64,000 nt of DNA, from assembly GCA_963725235.1 (NCBI GenBank), contig CAVRXN010000002.1, forward strand, positions 94,964 through 158,963. Direction: 5' to 3'. The notes under the pieces are model-generated. The model saw nothing but the letters and a program-made list of their open reading frames with translations. It was not told the origin of the DNA and did no database searches. Origin of the DNA: an uncultured bacterium (lineage in GTDB: Bacteria > Patescibacteriota > Minisyncoccia > UBA6257 > 2-01-FULL-56-20). Shown piece by piece: positions 7,093 to 58,567 of this stretch; the stretch's first letter is position 1; every line of letters begins with the position of its first letter. Made by a program: the position numbers and the translations under genes.

Positions 7093-7389
7093 TAATTTTA
7101 ACCATCCTTGGAGGAATGCTGGAATATCTGGGCTTTTTGGCTCAAAACCTTGCTGGTGCAAGCACTGCGTACAATTATGATCCGCTATATATCGTGTGGC
7201 AGACCAGTATGGCCGTGGGGCTGGCAGTAGCTCTACATTACGGCCGAGAAAATCTGCAGTTAAATTGTCTGTCAGCCCGTCAAATCCTAGCTCCGCCCAT
7301 TAGCAATCTCCCCCCGAGATTGACAATGGCAAGGCCTTGAACTAAAATTAAGGAAAAGTGAGTATAATATTAAATAAGCACTTAACCCA

Positions 7390-10055
7390 ATGCCAAACTT
7401 CCATCGTTTCACAATAAAAGCACAGGAGGCCTTGCAGAATGCGCAGGAGATCGCGGCAAAGAAGAATCACGGCGAACTGAAAGCGCTACATCTGCTCGCG
7501 GCGCTTATTGAAGACGAACAGTCGCTCGTCATTCCGGTTCTCGAGCGTTGCGGCGTCAATCTTAGAAAAGCTCGATGAGGAAATCGATGTCGAGCTCGAT
7601 CGCATCCCGCCGATAATGTCGCAACTCGAACGTCGGCCAGCTCTATCTTTCGCAGGAATTAATGAAGGTGCTCGACCAGGCGGCGAAAATCGCGGCTCAG
7701 CAAAAGGATGAGTTTGTTTCATGCGAACATTTATTGCTTGCGATCATCGATGTCCGGCGGAACCGCGAAATCGGTGCTCGAAAAGTTCGGCGTGCGACGC
7801 GAATCCGCATTCCGAGTTTTGGCGCAGCTTCGCGGCTCGACCCGCGTCATGGATGAAACGCCGGAATCGAAATTCCAGGTTCTTGAAAAATATGCGATCA
7901 ATCTGAGCGAGCGAGCAAAGAAGGGCGAACTCGATCCGGTCATCGGCCGCGAGGAAGAATTGCGCCGGCTGATGCAGGTGCTTTCACGCAGAACTAAGAA
8001 TAACCCATGCTTGATCGGCGAACCGGGCGTTGGAAAAACGGCGATCGTTGAAGGGCTTGCGCAAAGAATCGCTTCCGGCGACGTCCCGGAACTCTTGAAA
8101 GGAAAGCAGGTCTTGATGCTCGACCTCGGCTCGCTGATTGCCGGAACAAAGTTCCGCGGCGAGTTTGAAGACCGGTTGAAGGCCTTTATGCGCGAAGTAA
8201 AAAACGCCGCCGGCCAAATTATCTTATTCATTGACGAAATCCACACGATCGTCGGCGCAGGCGCTGCCGAGGGCGCTGTTGATGCGTCAAACCTATTAAA
8301 ACCCGCGCTCGCGCGCGGCGAACTGCACGCAATCGGCGCGACCACGATCCGCGAATACCAGAAATATATAGAGAAAGATGCAGCGCTCGAGCGCCGTTTC
8401 GCGCCGATTATGGTTGAAGAGCCAACAATCGAGGACTCGATCGCGATCCTGCGCGGCTTGAAAGAGAAATATGAAATCCATCATGGCATGCGCATCAGCG
8501 ATGAAGCGATCATCGAAGCGGTCAACTTGTCAGCGCGGTATATAACGGATAGATTTTTGCCGGACAAAGCCGTCGATTTGATCGATGAAGCCGCCGCAGC
8601 GCGTCGCCTCGAGTCCGAAAGCTTGCCGAAAGAGCTCGACCACATCCGCCGCGAGATCACCAAGCTTGAGATCGAAAAGCAGGCGCTTAACGAAAGAAGG
8701 TGAAAAAGGCAAAGAGCGGATCAAGGAGATCGACGTCGCCCTCGCAAAATTAAAAGAAGATAACGACGAAATCTCGGCCAAATGGCATTCGGAGAAGATA
8801 AAATTCGAGACGCTGCATCAGCTGCGGCAGAAAGTGGATAACCTGAAGCGTGAGGCAGAGATGGCGGAGCGGGAAGGTAATCTCGAACGCGTGGCGCAGA
8901 TTATCTATGGCGAACTGCCGCAGGCGGAAAAGGATTTCCAGATGTTTGAGAAGAAGAATTTTGGCGCGACCGCTACAACGCGATCGAAAAGGGCGAAAAC
9001 TGCCGGCGCGAATGTCTGCCGACGACCGTTTCCTGAAAGAAGCGGTCGACAAAGAAGATGTCGCCGCAGTCGTCGCCGTCTGGACCGGCATTCCGTTAAA
9101 GCGAATGCTCGAAACCGATACCGACAAGCTGATTCGGATCGAAGAAGTACTTCGCGGCCGCGTCATCGGCCAGGAAGAAGGCATCGGCGCGGTCGCATCG
9201 GCGCTCCGCCGCTCGCGTGCCGGCCTTTCCGATGAAAACCGCCCCATCGGCTCATTCATGTTCCTCGGACCAACCGGCGTCGGTAAAACCGAACTCGCAA
9301 AAGCGCTCGCCGAGTTTATGTTCAATGACGATAAAGCGCTCGTCCGGATCGATATGTCGGAATATATGGAGCGTCACGCCGTCAGCCGCTTGATCGGTTC
9401 GCCGCCGGGCTACGTGGGCCACGAAGAAGGCGGTCAGCTGACCGAAATTCTCCGCCACCGGCCATACAGTTTGATCCTATTCGACGAAATCGAAAAGGCA
9501 CATCCGGAAGTGTTTAACCTGCTCTTGCAGGTGCTCGACAACGGCCGCTTGACGGACAGCAAGGGGAAAACGGTCAACTTCAAGAACTCGATCATCATTA
9601 TGACGTCGAACGTCGGCAGTGAATATCTGAAGGCGATGTCACGCATCGGTTTCAGTGCGCCGAACGAAACGCCAGAAGAAGGGGATTATCGCGAGCGCGT
9701 ATTGGAAGCGCTCCGCCACAGCTTCCGCCCGGAATTCCTGAACCGCATCGATGAAGTCGTCATTTTCAACCCACTCCGCAAGCAGGACATCGAAAAAATC
9801 ATCGACATCCAACTCGACCTGATTAAGGCACGCCTCGAAGATCAGCATGGTATAAAGTTCGAAATCGACCCGGCCGCGCGCGCATATCTTGCAAAAGAAG
9901 GCTTTAGCGCAGAGTACGGCGCCCGTCCGTTGAAGCGAATGCTCCAAAAGGTTATCCTTGATAGGTTGGCGGATAAGATCATCCGCGGCGAAACCAAAGA
10001 TGGCGGCAAAGTTAAAGTCAATTTTAAGGCAAATTCACTGGTCTTTACTCCTTAG
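7390..10055 (+). CDS. clpB: ATP-dependent chaperone ClpB (Hsp100), frameshifted into at least 4 ORF pieces (7390..7578, 7508..7711, 7662..7856, 7708..8703, 8850..10055)
   Basis: Clp N domain ([19 protein letters not shown]), NBD1 ([20 protein letters not shown]), M-domain coiled coil, NBD2 ([17 protein letters not shown]...[10 protein letters not shown]). One frame break lies next to an A4 run. Confidence 0.85.
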
Positions 10056-10066
10056 GGCGGCGATTT

Positions 10067-10732
10067 TTGCGCTCGCTTGGTATTTCTTCCATGGCGGCTG
10101 GTTCTGGCTATTTCGCACTCGTCGCGCTCTATCTTTACTTCGTCCCGCCATTTCAAGCGGGCCGTTTGCTGTGGCCGTTCATTGCCCTCCTTATCCTGAC
10201 ATTCGCCGAACCGACGAACCCGCTATTTATCCTCATCTTCGCCATCCTCTTTTATTATCTCCTCCTAATCAAGGATCTCTTGTTGATAGACCGTAAGTCC
10301 GCCTACGAAATTCTCATCTTCGCCCTGTCGTTTTTCCTGCTGCGTGATTTTTACCGGGTCTTCGGCAGCGGCGTAAGCGGTTGGGGGATATGGTACGCAT
10401 TTCTACTCGCGGCACTCCTCGGCATTATAGCTTCCCGGTTCATGAAAGCATTCTCTATAAATGACCCGGCCGGCAGCTCCCCACATCCGCTTCGCCGAAT
10501 CATCTCCTGGCTAACATTCCTGCTTTCCTGGCAATTCCTCGTTCTTGGCCTCTTTATCCCGCTCGACTTCATTTACCAAACAGCGATCGTCTTTCTCGTG
10601 CTCGCCCTCGTAATCGATTTTGTTCCCGGCCAATACCTCGGGGACATCAGCCGCTCGAAAGCGCTCGCAACAGGCATAACCGTTTTTAGTATTTTAGTGA
10701 TTATTTTAGCCTCGGCTCGTTGGGGGCTATAA
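10067..10732 (+). CDS. Hypothetical polytopic membrane protein
   Basis: 221 aa, about 6 hydrophobic segments; no recognisable family. Confidence 0.4.
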   Translation: MRSLGISSMAAGSGYFALVALYLYFVPPFQAGRLLWPFIALLILTFAEPTNPLFILIFAILFYYLLLIKDLLLIDRKSAYEILIFALSFFLLRDFYRVFGSGVSGWGIWYAFLLAALLGIIASRFMKAFSINDPAGSSPHPLRRIISWLTFLLSWQFLVLGLFIPLDFIYQTAIVFLVLALVIDFVPGQYLGDISRSKALATGITVFSILVIILASARWGL

Positions 10733-10762
10733 ATATATTGCCGGTTTGACTTTGCCGCTTTA

Positions 10763-11497
10763 TTGCCGTATACTCCCGGCATGTTAGAAAGCGGCAAAAA
10801 CGAAGCGATTTTCAAAAAATCTTACGAGATTTCATACGCCTTGTGGCGTATCGCGGCAAATGTCCGTGAGTCAAATTTTGCCGATACTTTGAGAGGCAAA
10901 GCAGGCGCTTTGATCGGATTTTCCGCCGATGGCAATTTAGCGGCAATCGGCAAATTGATCCCGGCAACAGAACTGCTGATAAAGTTTGGCGTCGATGTAG
11001 GCGCCATAGGAATCGGCAACGGCGAGACGATATTCAAAGAAATCGGCAATTTGAAAGCGGCAATCCAAGAAGCGGCAATTGCCGGAAGCGAATCAGGAAC
11101 CGGCAAAGAAAGCGGCAATGGTAACAACGAAGTTTATCTCGGCGATATTTTTGCCGATTCAGTTGCCGATTTTGGAAAACAAGAACAGCAACACGAAGGC
11201 GCCGAAGATCCAGTTCGGCTTGATACATTCCTCGAAAACAATGCTATAAGTTCCGAACGAGAATACGATCCGGCAATTAACCAAAAAGCGGAAATGCGGC
11301 AAGCGGCAATTCTGGAAAGGATCCGGCAAATCGGCAATTGCCGGTTAGGGGATATCCAAGCGATTTTGCCGGAAACAAGCGAGCGGACGATTCGCTACGA
11401 TCTCGAGGCGCTGGTCCAAAAAGGTTTGGTCGAGCGCCTCGGGACCGGGGGACGGTCGGTCTATTATAGAGCGGCCGGCGGGAGTAATCCCCAGTAA
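10763..11497 (+). CDS. Four-helix-bundle (Avd / 23S-rRNA-IVS-like) domain fused to a C-terminal DeoR-type winged-HTH regulator; coding DNA saturated with the hexamer CGGCAA/TTGCCG
   Basis: N-terminus AIFKKSYEISYALWRIAANVRE...LRGKAGALIGFSADGNLAAIGKL resembles the Avd gene at 54998..55345. C-terminus ILERIRQIGNCRLGDIQAILPETSERTIRYDLEALVQKGLVERLG is a HTH_DeoR-like motif. Confidence 0.55.
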   Translation: MPYTPGMLESGKNEAIFKKSYEISYALWRIAANVRESNFADTLRGKAGALIGFSADGNLAAIGKLIPATELLIKFGVDVGAIGIGNGETIFKEIGNLKAAIQEAAIAGSESGTGKESGNGNNEVYLGDIFADSVADFGKQEQQHEGAEDPVRLDTFLENNAISSEREYDPAINQKAEMRQAAILERIRQIGNCRLGDIQAILPETSERTIRYDLEALVQKGLVERLGTGGRSVYYRAAGGSNPQ

Positions 11498-11618
11498 CGA
11501 GTTTGCAGTTCCTGCGTTATAATTAAGCGAAAGGTTCCATAGGTTCTGCGTGAGGCTGAACCGAAAAGAGCGTTTTCTCGTGGTTAGCGTTATGATCTCT
11601 TTTCGTGTATTCGTATGC

Positions 11619-11646
11619 CTCGCCCAGACCGGCGAGCTTTTTTATT
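11619..11646 (+). terminator. Rho-independent terminator (CTCGCC-CAGACC-GGCGAG + CTTTTTTATT)
   Basis: 6-bp GC stem followed by a T-run, ~120 nt after the regulator stop. Confidence 0.55.
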
Positions 11647-11858
11647 AAATTAACAGTTCCGCGCGGCGCGCGAACACAAGATAACGAACCCGCTTTCCTC
11701 ATTGCTTCGTGTGATGAACCCTCACTTCACCAGCGAAGAAATGGTGGAAGCGGTCCAGAAATAAATTGTTTTTACACCCAAGGTCGACGGCACTTGTATC
11801 CATAACGGGTATAAAGGTCGATAACTTAAATAAATTGTCGAAAAATAATTAATTAAAC

Positions 11859-14800
11859 ATGAGTATAGCTACAAAAAAATGGGCTTCGATAGCGCTCACG
11901 GTGTACCACAGTTTTGTGGGCAGCGGGAGTTGCTTCGTTGCCTCTCGCGAATGCACAGACGACGGCTGACCTTCAGGCTCAGATCGCGGCTTTGCTCGCG
12001 CAGATTCAACAGCTGCAGGCTCAATTGGGACCTACTTCGAGCACAACAACGTCAATGACTTCGTGCTATCCGTTTTCCAGCGACCTCACCGTTGGTTCAA
12101 CTGGCGCGGCAGTGACGGCGCTCCAGCAGATGCTGATTGCAAAAGGATACTTGACGGCGGTCTCCGCTCCGACCGGCTACTTTGGTGCTTTGACCCAGGC
12201 GGCGGTCGGCAAGTGGCAGGCGGCGAACGGCATCTCGCCGACAGCTGGTTATTTCGGTCCTAAGATCACGGGCGTTCTACGCATTCGACATGCGTAGGTA
12301 CGACGGCACGACGACACGGTACGACTGGCACGGCGGCGGTACAGTCGACGGCTCCGGCAACGGGTCTCTCGGTCAGCTTGGCTTCCGATAACCCGGCAGC
12401 TGGTTCGCTCATCACGAGCGCTTCGGTGGCAACGGTGCGGCTCGCGTTCCGGTTTTGGCGGTGAATTTCACTGCTGGAAACTCGGGCGCGGTCACGGTCA
12501 CGGGAGTTAACTTCCAGAAGACCGGCGTCTTGTCTGACAGTTCAGTTTCTGGCGCATACTTGATCCAGAATGGCCAGGTTATCGCCCAATACAATTCGAT
12601 CAGCAATGGCGTGATCAGTTTCTCCGGTTTGAATCTTTCAGATTCCGGCAGGCCAGACCGAGACGTACCAGCTCGCGATCGACGTTGCTGGCGGTCTCTC
12701 GGCGGGTAACACGACGGGCTTTTCTTTGAACAGCGCGTCTGATGTCACCGCATGGGATGCCAACAACAATGCGATAACGCCGACCGGCGCCTTCCCGTTG
12801 ACGGTAATACGTTCACGGTAACGTCCGTCAGCAATCCGTCGCTCGCTACCTCTCGGTCACTTCTTCCTCAATCGGAACGACGGTGACGGCGGGAACGCAG
12901 GGCAACATCGTCGGCGCATTCAACTTCTACGGTTCAGAACAAGCCGTTGTGGTTGAATGGCATCGAACTTCCACGTTATCGGTTCGGCTAATATGACGAA
13001 CCTCCAGAACGTGAAACTCTTGATCAATGGCACGCAGGTTGGCGCGACACTTGCCGTCGGTTGGTCAGAACAACATTGCTTACTTCAACCTGACGTCCGC
13101 TCCGGCGAAATTGAACACGGGTTCGAACAACGTCCAGATCTTAGCGGATGTCACGGGTTCGCCGTCATTCAACTTCCAGTTGGAAATCTTGAACGGCTAT
13201 GATGTCCTTGCGGTTGACAGCCAGTACAACGTTCCGGTCTCCGTATCGATTGACGGCGGCGGTTGATGCGCAGGTGACGATCCAGGCAGGTCAGACGACG
13301 ACTTCGCAGGATACTTCGACCCCGACTGGCAACATTGCCAAGGGTGTGTCGCAGGTTACTCTCGCGAAGTTTGACGTCTATGCGTCCGGCGAGCCGACCA
13401 AGGTCAAGTTCCTTGACTTCGACGTTGGTCTTCACGGGCGTGACGACCTCGACTCCGAACATGTTGCCATCGCCAACTTGGTGAAGAACGTCAACATCAC
13501 GGATGATTCCGGTCAGCAGGTTGGCACGACGATTAATACTCCTCCGTCCGGCAATTCGTGCGCCCAGATGGCGTCAGGTTCCGGTTACACCGGCGCTGCG
13601 AACGGCTCCTACGAACGGAACGATTACGTTCGGTAGCGGTAACCTATGTTGACTGTTTCGGTACTCCGCGTTCACCGATCAACTATGTCATCCCGGCGAA
13701 CACGACTCGCGTCTTGTCGCTCAAGGCTGACATCCAGTCGACGGCGAGCTTCCAGACGGTGACGGCGAACTTGCTCTCTGAATCCGGCCAGAACAACTTG
13801 CAGGGCCAGATTTCGAGCCAGTCAGACAGTTCATCCGGTGCAAACGGCAGCGCTCTCACGCTTTCGAACTCTAGTTTGACGGCGGCGCAGAACACGGCCT
13901 TGGCACCCAGAGCTTGTCGAAGGGTTCGAGCGAACCAGGAAATTGGTTCGTACGCTCTTACGGCGGCTTCGGCTGAAGGCGTGAACGTCAATACGGTCAC
14001 CGTCACGGTGAACGGCACTCGCTTGCGAGCTACCTCCAGAACTTGAAGTTGATCGTGAATGGTGCGCAGTTCGGTACAACCCAGCCGACAGTTATCGCTG
14101 GTGCGTACACGTTCTCGGGTTCTCCGTTCAACATTCCGGCAGGGTTCGACGGTTAACGTGAACATCTTATGCTGACATCAACTCGTCGGCTATCGCGACC
14201 ACGACAACCGGCGGTTTGACCTCGCTCACGGGTCTTAGCGGTTCGGGTGCGATTTCGAACGCTCGATTTCGCTTTCCCCGGGTCCAGCGTTCAGGGCCAG
14301 AACTTGACGATTTCCGGTGGTTCGTCTATCACGGTTACGGCCAACCAGGGTTCCAATCCTTCAGTTGGCCAGCTCTCGATGGGAACGACTGGCAATACGC
14401 TTGCTGCCTTCAACTTCCAGGAAACGGCGAACATAGAGAACATCAAGGTTACCAGCTTAATGTTGTTGACTTGTTGACGACCTCGACCTTCGGTCAGGCG
14501 ACCAACACGGCGAACGTTTTGCCTTCGTTCAACACCTTACGTTGTGGAACGGTGCGACTCAGGTCGGCGGTCAGGCCAACTATGTTGGTACAACGACAGT
14601 CAATGGCGCAGCGCCTTCCTCTACCAGTTCCAGTTCGGCAATTCGAGTCAACGTTCATTATTCCTGCGCAACGGCACGCTCTCGCGTTACCTTGAAAGGT
14701 AATGCGAATGCGTACACGGCGGGCAATACGACGGACGGTTCGATCCATACGTTCGAGGTTGCGACTTCGACGAACGTCGGTAGCGTGACCAACAACGTCG

Positions 14801-53841: not shown

Positions 53842-54567
53842 ATGGAAAACGTCAAACCTTCGGCCGTCGAAGCACCGGCAGTAATCATCAGGCCGACCGG
53901 CTTGGATCGCGATTATTTCTCCGCCGATGACTGGCAGCAGTCACGCGGCGTTACGTTGACCGACGAGCAACGTGATCTGATGCCGAAAGTGCCATGGGAT
54001 AATGATTTACTCATGTCTCCGTGCCCGTTTGATAAGAAACAGAAGAAACGGATCGGGGAAACGCACTACGGCTTCATTGGATTCGCGAGCGTTGCAGGCG
54101 AAGGCGTCCCGAGCGAGATGGTGAACTTGCTCAAACTACAGCGACTGTATCCTGCGGATCAACAGCCAAAATTCGTTTCGTACGCTCCGGATTCCTGGTA
54201 TTCGCACCAGGATTTCGCAAACCTCATCGCGCTGGAGTTTTGCTACTATCTTCTCCTGCGCGAGATCGTTCCGCGTTCGAATGGCCTTGTGTTCACGGAG
54301 CAGCAAGCAATGCTGCCACCGGGATATAAAGTGCCTTCGGCAATCGCAGAAACCGCAAAGGACTTGTTCATTTATGACAAGCTCAAGGTTTACGTGAATC
54401 CAAGGCATTACGCGCGAACTGCCGATCTCGATTCGCATGGCTCTCGCGTGTACGTCGGCCATTGCGACGCGAACGGTGTCTTCATCAACCGCTGGTACGA
54501 CGACAGGCCGCGCGACGGCATCGGTGTCGGCGCTGCCCGGGAGTTCGAAACGAACCTTGCGGCTTGA
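53842..54567 (+). CDS. DGR target (variable) protein; the C-terminal ~38 codons are encoded by the variable repeat
   Basis: 241 aa; the C-terminus ...DSHGSRVYVGHCDANGVFINRWYDDRPRDGIGVGAAREFETNLAA overlaps VR. Confidence 0.75.
   Translation: MENVKPSAVEAPAVIIRPTGLDRDYFSADDWQQSRGVTLTDEQRDLMPKVPWDNDLLMSPCPFDKKQKKRIGETHYGFIGFASVAGEGVPSEMVNLLKLQRLYPADQQPKFVSYAPDSWYSHQDFANLIALEFCYYLLLREIVPRSNGLVFTEQQAMLPPGYKVPSAIAETAKDLFIYDKLKVYVNPRHYARTADLDSHGSRVYVGHCDANGVFINRWYDDRPRDGIGVGAAREFETNLAA
54425..54540 (+). repeat. DGR variable repeat (VR), 116 bp
   Basis: 101/116 identical to TR; all 15 differences are at positions where TR has A (VR has C/T/G). Confidence 0.85.
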
Positions 54568-54600
54568 GTCATCGATCCTTTTGTTTGCTTTTCTTCCCTT

Positions 54601-54639
54601 GGGCCTTCGGCGCATTTTTGCCGGAGGCCCTCTTTTTTG
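54601..54639 (+). terminator. GC-rich hairpin (GGGCCTTCGGCG-N9-GCCGGAGGCCC) + T-run, ~60 nt after VR: target-gene terminator and candidate DGR IMH-associated hairpin/cruciform
   Basis: 10-11-bp stem with one mismatch, followed by TCTTTTTTG. Confidence 0.5.
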
Positions 54640-54869
54640 AAAGACTAAAATATGCTAAAATATTTTTATCTTGCTCGTGCAGGTGCGACCATGGTTTCGC
54701 CTCGCAAGGTATCTCACCTGAGATTTCGCCAGCGTGCCGCCGTCTGTCTATTGATTGCGGCAGAGTGCGACGATGGATAGAGATCGAACTTCTTGCCTGC
54801 TTCTCGTATAAAAAATCAGGGACAAAGAACATTTTCCGAGTTCCGGTGAATCTGATGGCAGTGGGCAAT

Positions 54870-54985
54870 ATCTCGATTCGAATGGCAATCGCGTGAACGT
54901 CGGCAATTGCGACGCGAACGGTGTCAACATCAACAACTGGAACGACGACAAGCCGAACGACAACATCGGTGTCGGCGCTGCCCGG
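54870..54985 (+). repeat. DGR template repeat (TR), 116 bp, Asn-codon (AAC/AAT) rich
   Basis: Translates in the VR frame to ...NGNRVNVGNCDANGVNINNWNDDKPNDNIGVGAARQS*; lies in the intergenic region between the target gene and avd/RT. Confidence 0.85.
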
Positions 54986-54997
54986 CAGTCATGATCT

Positions 54998-55345
54998 CTA
55001 CTCCCGAATGGATTTAATCCAACCTCCGAGCATTCGACCGATCTCGTCGGTCATTTCTTCAAGTTTCAGGTATTTCTTCATATCGATAACTTTCGCATCT
55101 TTTGCGAGGCGGAAGAATACTCGGAGGAGATTAAGTTTTGTGCTGACCTGTTTCAAGACGGGAATTTTCTCGGATTTATAAAGTTCGCTCGCAGCGAGGA
55201 TCCCTTCTATAACATCGAGGATAGTTTTCTCGGCGCGTTCCCAAATCGTATGCCGATCTTGTTTATTAATTCCGTTCCGGTAGCCATGGAAAAGCTGATA
55301 GAGATCGTACGATTTTTTAAAAATTGGAATATCGAAATTATCCAT
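54998..55345 (-). CDS. avd: DGR accessory variability determinant (Avd; four-helix-bundle protein)
   Basis: MDNFDIPIFKKSYDLYQLFHGYRNGINKQDRHTIWERAEKTILDVIEGILAA...; 115 aa, basic, on the opposite strand between TR and RT. Confidence 0.75.
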   Translation of the reverse strand: MDNFDIPIFKKSYDLYQLFHGYRNGINKQDRHTIWERAEKTILDVIEGILAASELYKSEKIPVLKQVSTKLNLLRVFFRLAKDAKVIDMKKYLKLEEMTDEIGRMLGGWIKSIRE

Positions 55346-55352
55346 TTTATTT

Positions 55353-56404
55353 ATGAAGGTATATCGCGATGTTTTTGATAGGATTATTAGTGTGGAAAGT
55401 ATTTTTGCCGCTTGGGATCAGTTTAAGCAGGATAAAAAGAATAGATCGGATGTCGCGAAGTTTGAGCAAAAGCTCGAAGAGAATTTGTTCCAATTGTGCC
55501 GCGATCTCAAGAATAAAAACTATCGTCATGGACCATATTACGGCTTTTATATCCATGACCCAAAGCAACGTCACATTCATAAGGCCACCGTCCGAGATCG
55601 TATTTTGCATCATGCCATTTTTTCGATTTTGAGCCCGATGTTTGAAGAGATGTTTATCTCGACGTCGTTTTCCTGCCGAGTTGGATTTGGAACGCACAGA
55701 GGCGTCGATATGCTCGCGCAGATGATTCGCAGAGTTTCGAAAAATGGCAGCCAGCAATGTTACGTTTTGAAATGCGATATTAAAAAATTCTTCGATAGTG
55801 TTGACCACGAGATACTCCTTAGCATTTTGAATCGGAGGGTCAAAGATGAAGACGCGGTGTGGCTCTTGCGCGAAATCGTAAAAAGTTACGTAATTAAACG
55901 AGAGAGAGAGAGAGAGTTCAAAGCCAAATTCAAAAAACTGGCATTCCAATCGGCAATTTGACTTCCCAGCTGTTCGCGAATGTCTACATGAATGAGTTCG
56001 ATCAATTCATTAAGCATGGTTTGCATATAAAACATTATGCCCGTTATACCGATGATTTTGCAATAGTGGCTTCGAGCCACTCTGAGTTAAAAAATCTTAT
56101 CGAACCGATAGAGCAATTTCTCGAAAGTCATCTGAAATTACAACTTCATCCGAAGAAAATTTCGGTCCGAACTATAAATCATGGCATTGATTTTCTTGGC
56201 TATGTAATATTTCCAGGCCATCGTTTGATTCGCACAAAAACCCGCAGACGAATTTTTAAAAAGTTCAAATTGAAAGTTGAGGCATATCGTTTGGGCCACA
56301 TTTCCGAAGATTTTTTGATGGCATCGCTCCGATCATATCTTGGCGTTCTGTCTCATGCAGATACTTATCATCTTGCGGAAGAGTTGAAAAATGCGCTATT
56401 ATAG
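55353..56404 (+). CDS. DGR reverse transcriptase, frame broken inside a (GA)8 tract at 55900-55916
   Basis: RDRILHHAIFSILSPMFEEMFISTSFSCRVGFGTH (compare Bordetella Brt RDRLVQHALCNI...YACRPDKGTH); GIPIGNLTSQLFANVYMNEFD (DGR hallmark); YARYTDDFAIV (YxDD). Confidence 0.85.
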
Positions 56405-57727: not shown

Positions 57728-58567
57728 ATGAACGAGACCGAAGTATACAATAAACTGCAAGATTGGGCTGAAAAGAACGAAAATATTCGAGCTATGGTTT
57801 TGACCAGTTCGAGGACTGCGAAGGATCCGAATGTTGATATTTTTTCCGATTATGACATCGAGTTTTACGTTAAAGACATGCGACAATTTCTTACGGACGA
57901 TTGGTTGTCATTCTTTGGTGATATTCTGATTAGATGGCCGTTAGAACCAATCATCGAGAACAACAACAATGTCACGCGTTTGGTGCTTTTTAATAACGAA
58001 GTAAGAATTGATTTTCAGATTACAGATAATGTAAAGATTGATGGAGCAAGATATGATAATGGATTCAAGGTTCTATTGGATAAGGATGGTATCGCGAAAG
58101 ACATAAAACTAGCAACTTATAGTCAATTCGTGGTTAAAAAACCAACGGAGAAAGAATTTATTGAACTCATAAACGACTTTTTCTGGGACGGAACTTATGT
58201 TGCAAAAAATCTCTGGAGAGATGAACTTTACTACGCCAAGTATATGATGGATAGTGTTATACGTTTTGAATATCTGCAAAAAGTAATTGAATGGTATATA
58301 GGAGTCGACCATGATTGGTCAGTCAATACAAATAAGTATGGGAGATTTTTCAAGCGATATCTCGATGAGGCACTATGGAAAGAGTTAGAGTCGACTTTCA
58401 GTGGAGCAAGCATAGAAGAAAACTGGAATGCCTTTTTTAATATGGTTACTCTTTTTAGCAAGTTAGCAAAAGAGATAGCTGCTAAATTAAATTATAATTA
58501 TCCATTAGACATTGAAACTAAAGCAGTTAAATACTATAAGAAAGTTAGAGGATTGGAAGGGAAATAA
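57728..58567 (+). CDS. aadK: Aminoglycoside 6-nucleotidyltransferase ANT(6) / AadK-AadE family (streptomycin adenylyltransferase), low-GC
   Basis: ENIRAMVLTSSRT...DIFSDYDIEFYV, FKVLLDKDGI, KPTEKEFIELINDFFWDGTYVAKNLWRDELYYAKYMMDSVIRFEYLQKVIEWYIG, KYGRFFKRYLDEALWKELESTFS; collinear with B. subtilis AadK. ATG is 2 nt after the serS stop. Confidence 0.8.
   Translation: MNETEVYNKLQDWAEKNENIRAMVLTSSRTAKDPNVDIFSDYDIEFYVKDMRQFLTDDWLSFFGDILIRWPLEPIIENNNNVTRLVLFNNEVRIDFQITDNVKIDGARYDNGFKVLLDKDGIAKDIKLATYSQFVVKKPTEKEFIELINDFFWDGTYVAKNLWRDELYYAKYMMDSVIRFEYLQKVIEWYIGVDHDWSVNTNKYGRFFKRYLDEALWKELESTFSGASIEENWNAFFNMVTLFSKLAKEIAAKLNYNYPLDIETKAVKYYKKVRGLEGK

What the first reader, a model, noticed from the sequence alone, without database searches (positions are those of the whole stretch)
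10740..11500. Regulator gene (Avd-like four-helix bundle + DeoR-type wHTH) whose DNA is saturated with CGGCAA/TTGCCG, including the perfect palindrome CGGCAATTGCCG twice
About 25 copies of the hexamer CGGCAA or its complement occur within ~650 bp, where fewer than one is expected by chance. Three TTGCCG copies sit in the 30 nt upstream of the start codon (ATTGCCGGTTTGACTTTGCCGCTTTATTGCCG). At least 15 CGGCAA copies lie inside the coding region, encoding recurring AIG/GN/SGN peptides. The 12-mer palindrome CGGCAATTGCCG is present at ~11070 and ~11325. Codon choice is constrained to regenerate the same DNA word, so selection is acting on the DNA rather than only on the protein: for example an operator or half-site array for a dimeric HTH protein (possibly the encoded one), a nucleoid- or partition-like seeding site, or a recombination hotspot. 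The Avd-like N-terminus is reminiscent of the DGR accessory protein 44 kb away.
Basis: seen in the sequence. Interest (0 to 1): 0.55.

Follow-up and report, generated by a model that had tools for sequence, protein, structure and literature searches.

The report
Regulator gene packed with own operators
A small DNA-binding regulator gene of a Patescibacteria (CPR) bacterium carries about 25 copies of one short DNA word in its promoter and coding sequence. The same word fills the same gene in about 80 other species and is kept even at silent codon positions, so the gene most likely doubles as a dense landing pad for its own protein.

Summary
There are 25 CGGCAA/TTGCCG copies in window 10738-11371, against about 1.2 expected, and both 12-mer palindromes are present.

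It is not compositional. In 73 of 81 orthologous genes from Paceibacteria the same word is significantly enriched (median 13 copies against 1.4 expected). Enrichment starts about 100 bp before the ATG and stops at the stop codon.

In-gene copies share flanks (AAWnCGGCAAt). Copies elsewhere do not.

Against an 80%-identical orthologue, silent differences are 0/42 inside words and 63/158 outside.

Two or three words fill the spacer between the -35 and -10 boxes of the gene's own, apparently leaderless, promoter.

The protein has an Avd-like four-helix bundle, a disordered linker and a C-terminal winged helix whose recognition helix is nearly invariant.

Best reading: an autorepressor whose binding sites are spread through its own gene. 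Binding by the encoded protein is inferred, not shown, and why the sites lie inside the coding sequence is unresolved. No other target was found, but only about 13% of the genome could be scanned.

Found in passing: a conserved structured leader RNA immediately downstream.

The parts
10738..11371 (.). Whole array: 25 copies of CGGCAA/TTGCCG (real site about AAWnCGGCAAt), covering the promoter and coding sequence
   Evidence: family-wide density profile
10746..10751 (+). -35 box TTGACT of the gene's own promoter
   Evidence: the only sigma-70-like match in 10000-12300; conserved as TTGCAA/TTGACT in orthologues
10752..10768 (-). Promoter spacer holding two words (TTGCCG at 10752-10757 and 10763-10768). 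A third word sits at 10738-10743 just upstream of the -35 box. Inferred operator.
   Evidence: orthologues carry TTGCCGgaTTGCCGgat in the same spacer
10769..10774 (+). -10 box TATACT. The ATG follows 6 nt later, so the mRNA is inferred to be leaderless or nearly so.
10781..11497 (+). Coding sequence of the 238-aa regulator, holding 22 words
   Evidence: (P0001, 100% identity, 238 aa)
10787..11092 (+). N-terminal four-helix bundle (aa 3-104), with S23/23S-IVS/Avd-like fold
11093..11269 (+). Disordered linker (aa 105-163), acidic in this protein and variable in length across the family; still carries words
   Evidence: (pLDDT below 50)
11270..11473 (+). C-terminal winged helix-turn-helix (aa 164-231); recognition helix SERTIRYDL
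11073..11084 (.). Palindrome CGGCAATTGCCG, copy 1 (encodes AAIAG)
11297..11371 (.). Most conserved word cluster: CGGCAAgCGGCAA, then 14 nt, CGGCAAatCGGCAATTGCCG (palindrome copy 2 at 11332-11343), then 22 nt, TTGCCG. It encodes RQAAILERIRQIGNCRL...LP in helix 1 of the winged helix.
   Evidence: recurrent distances 7/8/27/35/41/69 across 81 genes

Best explanation
The gene encodes a self-regulating DNA-binding protein, and its own promoter and coding sequence carry a dense array of that protein's binding sites.

Shown: a site of about 11 bp (AAWnCGGCAAt) is kept by purifying selection at 10-30 places in this gene across the Paceibacteria. This holds at silent codon positions and in both orientations. 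Two or three copies fill the -35/-10 spacer and the start point of the gene's own, apparently leaderless, promoter.

Inferred:
- The C-terminal winged helix of the encoded protein reads the word. One domain would bind one site, with the recognition helix on CGGCAA and the wing on the A/T-rich flank.
- Occupying the spacer sites blocks RNA polymerase, giving autorepression.
- The N-terminal Avd-like bundle makes an oligomer (its structural relatives are pentamers). Several winged helices hang from this hub on long flexible linkers.
- Irregularly spaced sites in either orientation inside the gene could then be bound at the same time as the promoter sites. That would give high avidity, looping or coating of the gene, roadblocks to elongation, and a protein level set by the number of sites to be filled (self-titration).

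The downstream output (other targets, the signal that releases the protein) is unknown.
For: - 25 copies in 634 bp against about 1.2 expected.
- The same word is the top hexamer in about 70 of 80 orthologous genes and is significant in 73/81, at protein identities of 27-49% and even in a 27% G+C genome.
- Density rises from 1-2/kb to 13-27/kb from -100 to the stop codon, then falls back to about 1/kb.
- Flank preference: A(-3) plus W(-2) occurs in 77% of in-gene copies and 16% of 1257 outside copies.
- Codon test: RQ is written CGGCAA in 71% of cases against 8% in flanking ORFs, and five other peptide classes show the same trend.
- Close-range test: 1/132 nucleotide differences inside words against 121/558 outside. 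Synonymous differences are 0/42 against 63/158. One lost word is replaced 3 nt away, so the count stays at 22.
- About half of the coding-sequence copies sit at positions shared across the family. The other half are lineage-specific, which points to selection on number.
- Promoter architecture TTGCAA/TTGACT, then TTGCCGgaTTGCCGgat, then TATAAT, then 6-8 nt, then ATG in most species.
- In two lineages the word changed in both promoter and coding sequence together: L044 to TTTCCGGAAA and L027 to TTGCAGG.
- The recognition helix SERT[ILV]RYD[LIV] is the most conserved part of the protein, present in about 200 of 222 family proteins, matching the invariance of the word.
- The fold is a four-helix bundle, a disordered linker and a winged helix. 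The bundle superposes on the pentamer-forming S23/IVS proteins 2gsc and 2rld and on DGR Avd.
Against: - No binding experiment exists, so the binder could be another protein.
- Both the word and the recognition helix are nearly invariant, so there is no real co-variation test. The one helix change seen (Y206N) goes with a changed word in L044 but not in P0094/L205.
- The oligomeric state is not tested.
- Classical autorepression needs only the promoter sites. Why 10-30 more sites are kept inside the coding sequence is not explained by any test here.
- No other target promoter was found. This would make a regulator that regulates only itself, but only 64 kb of this genome plus one syntenic neighbourhood in the other species could be scanned.
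Confidence: 0.55

Rival explanations
1. The array is mainly a cis-acting chromosomal landmark, such as a centromere-like, membrane-anchoring or nucleoid-organising site bound by the encoded protein. Autorepression would be a side effect, as with plasmid centromere-binding proteins.
For: A single dense cluster per sampled region with no second cluster. Short repeats in both orientations overlapping the binder's own promoter, as in omega/parS of pSM19035 (PMC3074150). Weak winged-helix fold matches include the centromere-binding protein AspA. A conserved membrane protein is encoded upstream.
Against: There is no ParA/ParM/TubZ-type motor gene next to it. The array ends exactly at the gene's borders although 300-500 bp of non-coding DNA lies just downstream. 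That fits a link to this transcription unit better than a position-only landmark. There is no GC-skew feature.
Confidence: 0.13
2. The array works on the neighbouring promoter. Protein bound along the gene would activate, repress or insulate the promoter that starts immediately after the stop codon and drives the leader RNA and the roughly 1200-aa peptidoglycan-binding surface protein.
For: The regulator is followed by this big gene in 73/80 loci. The leader promoter abuts or overlaps the regulator's stop codon. The densest word cluster is in the 3' third of the gene. In some species a word sits about 10 nt upstream of the leader's -35-like GTAACCTTT.
Against: The distance from the last word to the leader hairpin varies from 43 to 536 nt, unlike a positioned activator site. 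There is no word enrichment in the intergenic DNA. This reading is compatible with the best explanation rather than exclusive of it.
Confidence: 0.12
3. The words are bound by a different factor, such as a global regulator or nucleoid protein, and the encoded protein is only the regulated product.
For: No binding data exist. The hexamer is about 2-fold over shuffle expectation across the window.
Against: Outside copies lack the site's flanks. No operator-like pairs occur at other promoters in about 850 kb examined. The array is tied to this one gene family across species whose genomes range from 27% to 61% G+C.
Confidence: 0.1
4. RNA-level function: the words act in the mRNA, either as CGGCAA:UUGCCG pairing or as protein-mRNA binding sites for translational autoregulation.
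For: The coding sequence folds more stably than shuffles (z = -4.2). The array matches the transcribed region. 65% of copies are in sense orientation.
Against: The best-conserved copies lie in the promoter spacer, upstream of the inferred start of transcription. Antisense copies are as conserved as sense copies. Sense copies outnumber antisense 16 to 6 in the coding sequence, so most would have no partner. The extra stability is the expected by-product of inverted words.
Confidence: 0.04
5. Iterons of a replication origin embedded in an initiator gene, as in RepC or RepA_N replicons.
For: There is a precedent for a cis site inside the coding sequence of the protein that uses it, sensitive to silent mutations (oriV inside repC, PMC3155836).
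Against: The context is a conserved chromosomal housekeeping neighbourhood, not a mobile element. There is no Rep-family match. Genes on both sides are co-oriented and there is no skew inflection.
Confidence: 0.03
6. Artefact of composition, codon usage or a repetitive peptide.
For: The protein does contain recurring GN/AAI/RQ peptides.
Against: All three reading frames and both strands are used. The codon test, the synonymous-site test and the flank test all contradict this reading. The promoter copies are non-coding.
Confidence: 0.01

Closest known systems
Omega repressor / parS heptad arrays of plasmid pSM19035, and ParR-parC and ParG-type centromere-binding autorepressors
   Same: Arrays of 7-10 short repeats (5'-WATCACW-3') in direct or inverted orientation overlap the binder's own promoter and are bound cooperatively, one protein unit per repeat. 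They serve as both operator and centromere (PMC3074150). Here too there are short units at a 7-8-bp period, in both orientations, overlapping the gene's own promoter.
   Different: Omega is a ribbon-helix-helix dimer, while this protein is a winged helix on a four-helix-bundle hub. Omega's repeats are contiguous and lie upstream of genes. Here most sites are dispersed inside the coding sequence. No partner ATPase is encoded nearby.
Cis-acting sites embedded in the coding sequence of the protein that uses them: oriV inside repC of repABC plasmids. From memory, not checked here: iterons inside RepA_N rep genes and parS inside B. subtilis spo0J.
   Same: One stretch of DNA both codes for the protein and carries the protein's own cis site. 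In repC, silent mutations destroy the function (PMC3155836). Here silent sites inside words are frozen.
   Different: Those are replication or segregation sites on replicons, with one site or a few. This is a chromosomal regulator gene with 10-30 copies of a short word and a promoter operator. There is no Rep or ParB homology.
CtsR, the class III stress-gene repressor of Firmicutes (from my own knowledge)
   Same: A winged helix plus a four-helix bundle. It binds tandem direct heptad repeats overlapping the -35/-10 boxes, is autoregulated, and is encoded next to clp genes. Here clpB lies 1-4 kb upstream in 64/80 loci.
   Different: The domain order is reversed and there is no sequence match. 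The word differs. The clpB promoter in the window has no word. CtsR has no intragenic array.
DGR accessory protein bAvd and the S23 / 23S rRNA intervening-sequence four-helix-bundle proteins
   Same: The N-terminal domain superposes on 2gsc and 2rld (TM 0.72-0.76 normalised to target) and on Avd in 8ub7 (TM 0.60-0.65). A collinear weak alignment with the window's own bAvd shares the peptide IFKKSY.
   Different: There is no Pfam match to bAvd or 23S_rRNA_IVP even at E<=10, and hhalign probability is 1.6%. The gene is fused to a winged helix and is not next to a reverse transcriptase. The DGR has its own bAvd.
Decoy or titration site clusters, such as datA for DnaA (from my own knowledge) and decoy sites for response regulators (title seen, PMC8599769; paper not read)
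   Same: Many binding sites at one locus that soak up a DNA-binding protein and set its free level.
   Different: Those clusters are not inside the binder's own coding sequence and are not coupled to its promoter.

Membership tests
DeoR-type winged HTH domain (Pfam PF08220) | Sequence match above Pfam's curated cutoff | tested here: met
   29.9 bits against cutoff 21, aa 173-220. Penicillinase_R also just passes, at 23.9 against 22.6.
DeoR-type winged HTH domain (Pfam PF08220) | Three-helix plus beta-hairpin wing fold | tested here: met
   AlphaFold helices 164-184, 189-195 and 201-213 and strands 217-220 and 228-231, with pLDDT above 90. Foldseek hits to PerR, MecI, ArsR and AspA winged helices.
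DeoR family regulators (full-length architecture) | N-terminal HTH followed by a C-terminal DeoR-type sugar-phosphate sensor domain | tested here: not met
   The HTH is C-terminal and no sensor domain was found. The public label 'DeoR family transcriptional regulator' fits only the HTH.
bAvd / 23S rRNA-IVS four-helix-bundle family (PF22296, PF05635) | Sequence match to the family profiles | tested here: not met
   The N-terminal 110 aa alone gives no match at E<=10. hhalign against the window's bAvd gives E 0.03, probability 1.6%.
bAvd / 23S rRNA-IVS four-helix-bundle family (PF22296, PF05635) | Up-down four-helix bundle superposable on solved members | tested here: inconclusive
   TM 0.72-0.76 to 2gsc/2rld and 0.60-0.65 to Avd 8ub7. 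However, Foldseek E is only 0.02-0.08 and four-helix bundles are common.
bAvd / 23S rRNA-IVS four-helix-bundle family (PF22296, PF05635) | Homopentamer; for Avd, partnership with a DGR reverse transcriptase | not testable with these tools
   No multimer prediction was available. The gene is 44 kb from the DGR, which has its own bAvd at 54998-55345.
Centromere-binding autorepressors with repeat arrays (omega, ParR, ParG, TubR, AspA) | [quoted passage not shown] | tested here: met
Centromere-binding autorepressors with repeat arrays (omega, ParR, ParG, TubR, AspA) | Adjacent partition NTPase gene (ParA, ParM or TubZ) | tested here: not met
   The neighbours are HtrA, ClpB, a membrane protein, a PG_binding_1 protein and HU.
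Centromere-binding autorepressors with repeat arrays (omega, ParR, ParG, TubR, AspA) | Demonstrated role in DNA segregation | not testable with these tools
   Needs cell biology or genetics.
CtsR | CtsR sequence family, N-terminal winged helix, and GGTCAAA heptad operator at clp promoters | tested here: not met
   There is no CtsR match. The domain order is reversed. The clpB promoter lacks the word.
Iteron replicons with the origin inside the initiator gene (RepC, RepA_N) | Rep-family initiator on a plasmid or mobile element, with origin features | tested here: not met
   There is no Rep match. The chromosomal synteny is conserved. There is no skew inflection.

The most novel reading that the evidence does not exclude
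This would be a self-referential module: the coding sequence of a multivalent (possibly pentameric) winged-helix protein has been shaped, codon by codon, to be that protein's own high-density binding platform. The number of sites in the gene would then set the cellular amount of the protein, which matters in cells so small that a few molecules count. The coated gene would act as a local chromatin-like switch or landmark next to the attenuator-controlled gene for a giant surface protein. That would be a regulatory architecture not described in bacteria, and a case where the need to encode an operator drives protein sequence (RQ, GN and AAI peptides).
Probability: 0.25. Interest if true: 0.85.

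Novelty: new variant of a known kind. Interest (0 to 1): 0.68.

Why it matters
Transcription control in the Candidate Phyla Radiation is almost unstudied, because these bacteria are rarely cultured. This finding gives a large, conserved regulator family (at least 480 clusters at 50% identity) a precise predicted DNA site, a predicted operator and a directly testable autoregulatory circuit.

It is also an unusually clean natural case of dual coding. A protein-coding sequence is held under strong purifying selection at silent sites (0/42 against 63/158) because it also carries 10-30 copies of a binding word. The word in turn biases the protein's own amino-acid content.

If the self-titration or coating model holds, it would show how very small cells fix the level of a regulator by counting sites on DNA. 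The module also sits directly upstream of a newly noticed structured leader RNA and a giant cell-surface protein gene, so it may control the cell envelope of these episymbionts.

Tried and rejected
None of the 80 stored loci had the family gene, so the scan says nothing about a regulon.

(2) I searched for other targets: direct-repeat and palindromic word pairs, and words next to -10 boxes, in the window and about 850 kb of flanks. Nothing exceeded chance. The flanks are one syntenic neighbourhood, so a regulon elsewhere is not excluded.

(3) The co-variation test between recognition helix and word is uninformative because both are nearly invariant. Y206N accompanies a new word in L044 but not in P0094/L205.

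(4) Heat-shock regulator of clpB or htrA: rejected for the window, whose clpB promoter carries a different inverted repeat and no word.

(5) Helical phasing of sites: none. The recurrent distances come from one conserved cluster.

(6) Replication origin: no skew or gene-orientation switch.

(7) Defence-system or phage protein: only weak generic winged-helix matches.

(8) Rfam found nothing at or after the gene: no match at gathering thresholds across the whole window and none at E<=10 over 11450-11960.

(10) Literature searches for the word, for CPR regulators and for intragenic auto-operators found no description of this family.
Full report
OBSERVATION

The window holds 149 copies of CGGCAA or its complement, against 60.7 +/- 6.6 in dinucleotide shuffles. 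Of these, 25 fall in 10738-11371. The rest of the window carries 1.96/kb, so about 1.2 are expected in those 634 bp (Poisson p = 2e-21). No unrelated hexamer exceeds 8 copies in any 634-bp stretch. The palindrome CGGCAATTGCCG occurs twice (11073, 11332), both in the gene, against 0.02 expected.

The gene is 10781-11497 on the + strand. Its start is the ATG at 10781, not the TTG at 10763 that the longest ORF suggests. The 238-aa product is identical to database protein P0001, and homologues start at the equivalent M-x-E-S/T-G-K.

The word is written in all three reading frames and on both strands:
- C-GGC-AAx gives SGK, IGK, IGN, TGK and SGN.
- xCG-GCA-Axx gives AAN, AAI, PAT and PAI.
- CGG-CAA gives RQ.
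- The antisense copies give FAD, VAD, NCR and LP (family-wide).

THE WORD IS A FAMILY TRAIT, NOT A QUIRK OF THIS GENOME

The protein has 94 word-indexed homologues. A full HMM search of 1.84 billion representatives gives 480 clusters at E<=1e-30 and 908 at E<=1e-10. Where named, they come from Patescibacteria (Paceibacterota, Parcubacteria, Liptonbacteria, Harrisonbacteria).

I fetched 80 loci from GTDB species representatives. CGGCAA is the single most enriched hexamer in the orthologous gene in about 70 of them. This holds at 27-49% protein identity and in genomes from 27% to 61% G+C. Enrichment is significant (p<1e-3) in 73 of 81 genes, with a median of 13 copies against 1.4 expected and a range of 4-33.

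Averaged over loci, the density is:
- 1-2/kb in the flanks;
- 16/kb in the 100 bp before the ATG;
- 13-27/kb through the coding sequence;
- about 1/kb directly after the stop codon.

THE REAL SITE IS LONGER THAN THE HEXAMER

The 1014 in-gene copies share flanks: A at -4 (59%), A at -3 (81%), T or A at -2 (92%) and T at +6 (53%). That gives roughly AAWnCGGCAAt. The 1257 copies in the flanks have flat flanks. A(-3) plus W(-2) occurs in 77% of in-gene copies and 16% of outside copies. Within the window the figures are 76% of 25 and 12% of 124. The twofold hexamer excess elsewhere in the window is therefore background, probably codon usage, and not more sites.

A core read in the major groove with an A/T-rich flank is what a single winged helix would be expected to contact. 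This is an inference.

SELECTION ACTS ON THE DNA

Three tests agree.

(a) Across 81 genes, the peptides that can be written with the word are written with it 51-87% of the time. In 273 long flanking ORFs the figure is 8-25%. For example, RQ is CGGCAA in 167/234 cases against 18/222, and x-A-I is xCG-GCA-A in 260/392 against 184/2413. The dipeptide RQ itself is nine times more frequent in this gene than in the flanking ORFs.

(b) Against the 80%-identical orthologue L207, nucleotide divergence is 1/132 inside words and 121/558 outside. Among codons for identical residues, synonymous differences are 0/42 where the third base lies in a word and 63/158 elsewhere. Against L208 the figures are 2/37 and 50/136. 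Both orientations are equally frozen.

(c) There is turnover with a constant count. W and L207 both have 22 words in the coding sequence, and one lost word is replaced 3 nt away. Family-wide, about half of the copies sit at shared alignment positions and half are lineage-specific. This points to selection on number as well as position.

ANATOMY OF THE PROMOTER

The only sigma-70-like promoter match in 10000-12300 is TTGACT (10746), 17 nt, TATACT (10769). Its spacer is TTGCCGctttaTTGCCG, a third word lies just upstream of the -35 box, and the ATG follows the -10 box by 6 nt.

In most orthologues the arrangement is cTTGCAa or TTGACt, then TTGCCGgaTTGCCGgat, then TATAAT, then 6-8 nt, then ATG. 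Often a further TTGCCG lies between the -10 box and the ATG.

Two conclusions follow by inference:
- The mRNA is leaderless or nearly so.
- A protein sitting on the spacer words would occlude RNA polymerase. This is the classical position of an autorepressor's operator.

The commonest pair geometries are direct repeats of period 8 (127 cases), the palindrome (57) and period 7 (45). Almost all lie inside the gene or its promoter.

The most conserved cluster encodes helix 1 of the winged helix: RQ-x-AIL-x-RIRQ-x-GNCR...LP. In the DNA this is CGGCAAgCGGCAA, then 14 nt, CGGCAAatCGGCAATTGCCG, then 22 nt, TTGCCG, at window 11297-11371.

THE PROTEIN

AlphaFold with 89 sequences gives mean pLDDT 82:
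- a four-helix bundle, aa 3-104, pLDDT about 97;
- a disordered linker, aa 105-163, acidic in this protein and variable in length across the family;
- a winged helix, aa 164-231.

Pfam places the winged helix in HTH_DeoR above the curated cutoff. The protein lacks the DeoR sensor domain and has the HTH at the wrong end for a DeoR-family regulator.

Foldseek aligns the bundle with Xcc0516 (2gsc; chains A-E were each hit), BT_0352 (2rld) and DGR Avd (8ub7). TM-scores normalised to the target are 0.60-0.76 and E-values are 0.02-0.08. There is no Pfam match and only a weak collinear hhalign match to the window's own bAvd. 'Avd-like' is therefore supported as a fold, not as family membership.

Avd and its relatives form pentamers (my knowledge of the family; not testable here). 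A hub with several winged helices on roughly 60-residue flexible tethers would explain why sites can be irregularly spaced and in either orientation.

The recognition helix SERT[ILV]RYD[LIV] is present in about 200 of 222 family proteins. This matches the invariance of the word.

WHO BINDS?

This is not shown. Three observations support the encoded protein:
- the strict association of the array with this gene family;
- the parallel invariance of word and recognition helix;
- concerted change of promoter and intragenic copies in two lineages, L044 to TTTCCGGAAA and L027 to TTGCAGG/CTGCAA.

A residue-level co-variation test fails for lack of variation. Y206N accompanies the new word in L044 but not in P0094/L205.

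CONTEXT

The synteny is conserved: HtrA, ClpB, a multi-pass membrane protein without a Pfam match, the regulator, a 300-500 nt gap, a roughly 1200-aa PG_binding_1 protein, then HU. The big gene follows in 73/80 loci.

The clpB promoter in the window has a different inverted repeat and no word. No operator-like word pair, and no word next to a -10 box, occurs elsewhere beyond chance in the window or in about 850 kb of flanks. However, I could see only about 13% of this genome and one neighbourhood in the others.

MECHANISM

I commit to an autorepressor with a self-embedded operator array:
- The spacer sites shut the promoter.
- The intragenic sites, bound by the other arms of an oligomer, add avidity, loop or coat the gene and obstruct elongation.
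- The protein level at which the gene shuts is tied to the number of sites.

The first step rests on position and conservation. The later steps are inference. Overall confidence is 0.55.

RIVALS

- A centromere-like or anchoring landmark (0.13).
- Control or insulation of the promoter that begins at the stop codon (0.12, and compatible with the main model).
- Binding by another factor (0.10).
- An RNA-level role (0.04). The coding sequence folds at z = -4.2, but the promoter copies and the frozen antisense copies argue for DNA.
- Iterons of an origin (0.03). There is no skew or orientation switch and the context is chromosomal.
- Artefact (0.01).

COMPARISON WITH KNOWN SYSTEMS

The system works most like the repeat-array autorepressors of plasmid partition, such as omega on 7-10 heptads in either orientation across its own promoter (PMC3074150). 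It also resembles cis sites hidden in the coding sequence of the protein that uses them, such as oriV inside repC, which is killed by silent mutations (PMC3155836).

It is a member of neither. The fold differs, there is no motor or Rep homology, the setting is chromosomal, and the sites are dispersed through the coding sequence.

I found no description of this family or of its word. I rate it a new variant of a known kind, with interest 0.68.

BY-CATCH

Directly after the stop codon lies a conserved non-coding unit. See the items noticed in passing.

Noticed in passing
window 11518-11645 (and downstream of the regulator in 55/81 loci): A conserved non-coding transcription unit starts at the regulator's stop codon. 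It has a -10 box TATAAT (11518-11523) preceded by a conserved GTAACCTTT/CACACCTTTT element. In 18/55 loci this reads AAC-N15-18-CGT, reminiscent of ECF-sigma promoters. Next comes a hairpin GGUUCnG-yGUGAGG-CUGrACC (11542-11562) with an invariant loop, where 6 of 7 pairs show compensatory changes (96% paired against 82% in shuffles). A variable middle follows, then an intrinsic terminator cAGCCUCGCC...GCGAG-U6 (11619-11645). GAGGCUG of the hairpin is complementary to CAGCCUC in the terminator's 5' arm, which suggests a terminator/antiterminator switch. There is no Rfam match at E<=10.
   Followed up: partly
window 11782-11861: Just before the start of the big PG_binding_1 gene (ATG 11859) there is a second conserved element. 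It reads aaGGTCGAcgGc, then a hairpin whose stem sequence differs between species but still appears to pair by eye (loop AUAA; no formal pair count was run), then aGGTCGAtaa, then (a/g)TCGAAA, then an A-rich stretch and the ATG. A conserved CCUCAC further upstream (about 11718) is complementary to the GUGAGG loop of the leader hairpin.
   Followed up: partly
window 53842-56404: A diversity-generating retroelement. The target gene is 53842-54567, with the variable repeat at 54425-54544. The template repeat is at 54870-54989 (87% identical). bAvd lies on the minus strand at 54998-55345 (PF22296, E 1e-16). The reverse transcriptase is split between two frames (55353-55961 and 55958-56404).
   Followed up: partly
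window about 7390-10055 (clpB), 11859 onward (big surface-protein gene), 55353-56404 (RT): Three genes that are intact in orthologues are broken over two or three reading frames in this window. For example, the big gene shifts frame between about 11880 and 11914. This suggests indel errors in the assembly rather than pseudogenes. The regulator gene itself is intact and identical to P0001.
   Followed up: partly
window 7302-7345: The clpB promoter (TTGACA 7320-7325, then 17 nt, then TAAAAT) is overlapped by an inverted repeat CAATCTC-N5-GAGATTG. This may be the operator of a different stress repressor. It contains no CGGCAA word.
   Followed up: no
L044 4880-5830; L027 promoter and coding sequence: Two lineages have changed the word. 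L044 uses the palindrome TTTCCGGAAA in both the promoter spacer and the coding sequence: 11 TCCGGAAA copies in the gene and its promoter against 6 in the roughly 10-kb flanks. L027 has TTGCAGGATTGCAGGAT in the promoter and CTGCAA copies in the gene, alongside the CGGCAA copies it retains. These are natural specificity variants worth testing experimentally.
   Followed up: partly
window 57728-58567: An ORF matches streptomycin adenylyltransferase (PF04439) along its whole length (E 8e-78). It lies directly after seryl-tRNA synthetase in this CPR genome.
   Followed up: no
window 10067-10732, with orthologues in at least 53/80 loci: A conserved multi-pass membrane protein of 220-250 aa has no Pfam, PADLOC or PHROG match. 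It is encoded between clpB and the regulator, and its start overlaps the end of clpB by about 55 nt in orthologues.
   Followed up: no
window 1-64000, outside 10738-11371: Even outside the gene, the bare hexamer is about twice as frequent as in shuffles (124 copies), mostly on the + strand from 29 kb onward. These copies lack the site's flanking bases, so they look like codon-usage background rather than binding sites.
   Followed up: partly
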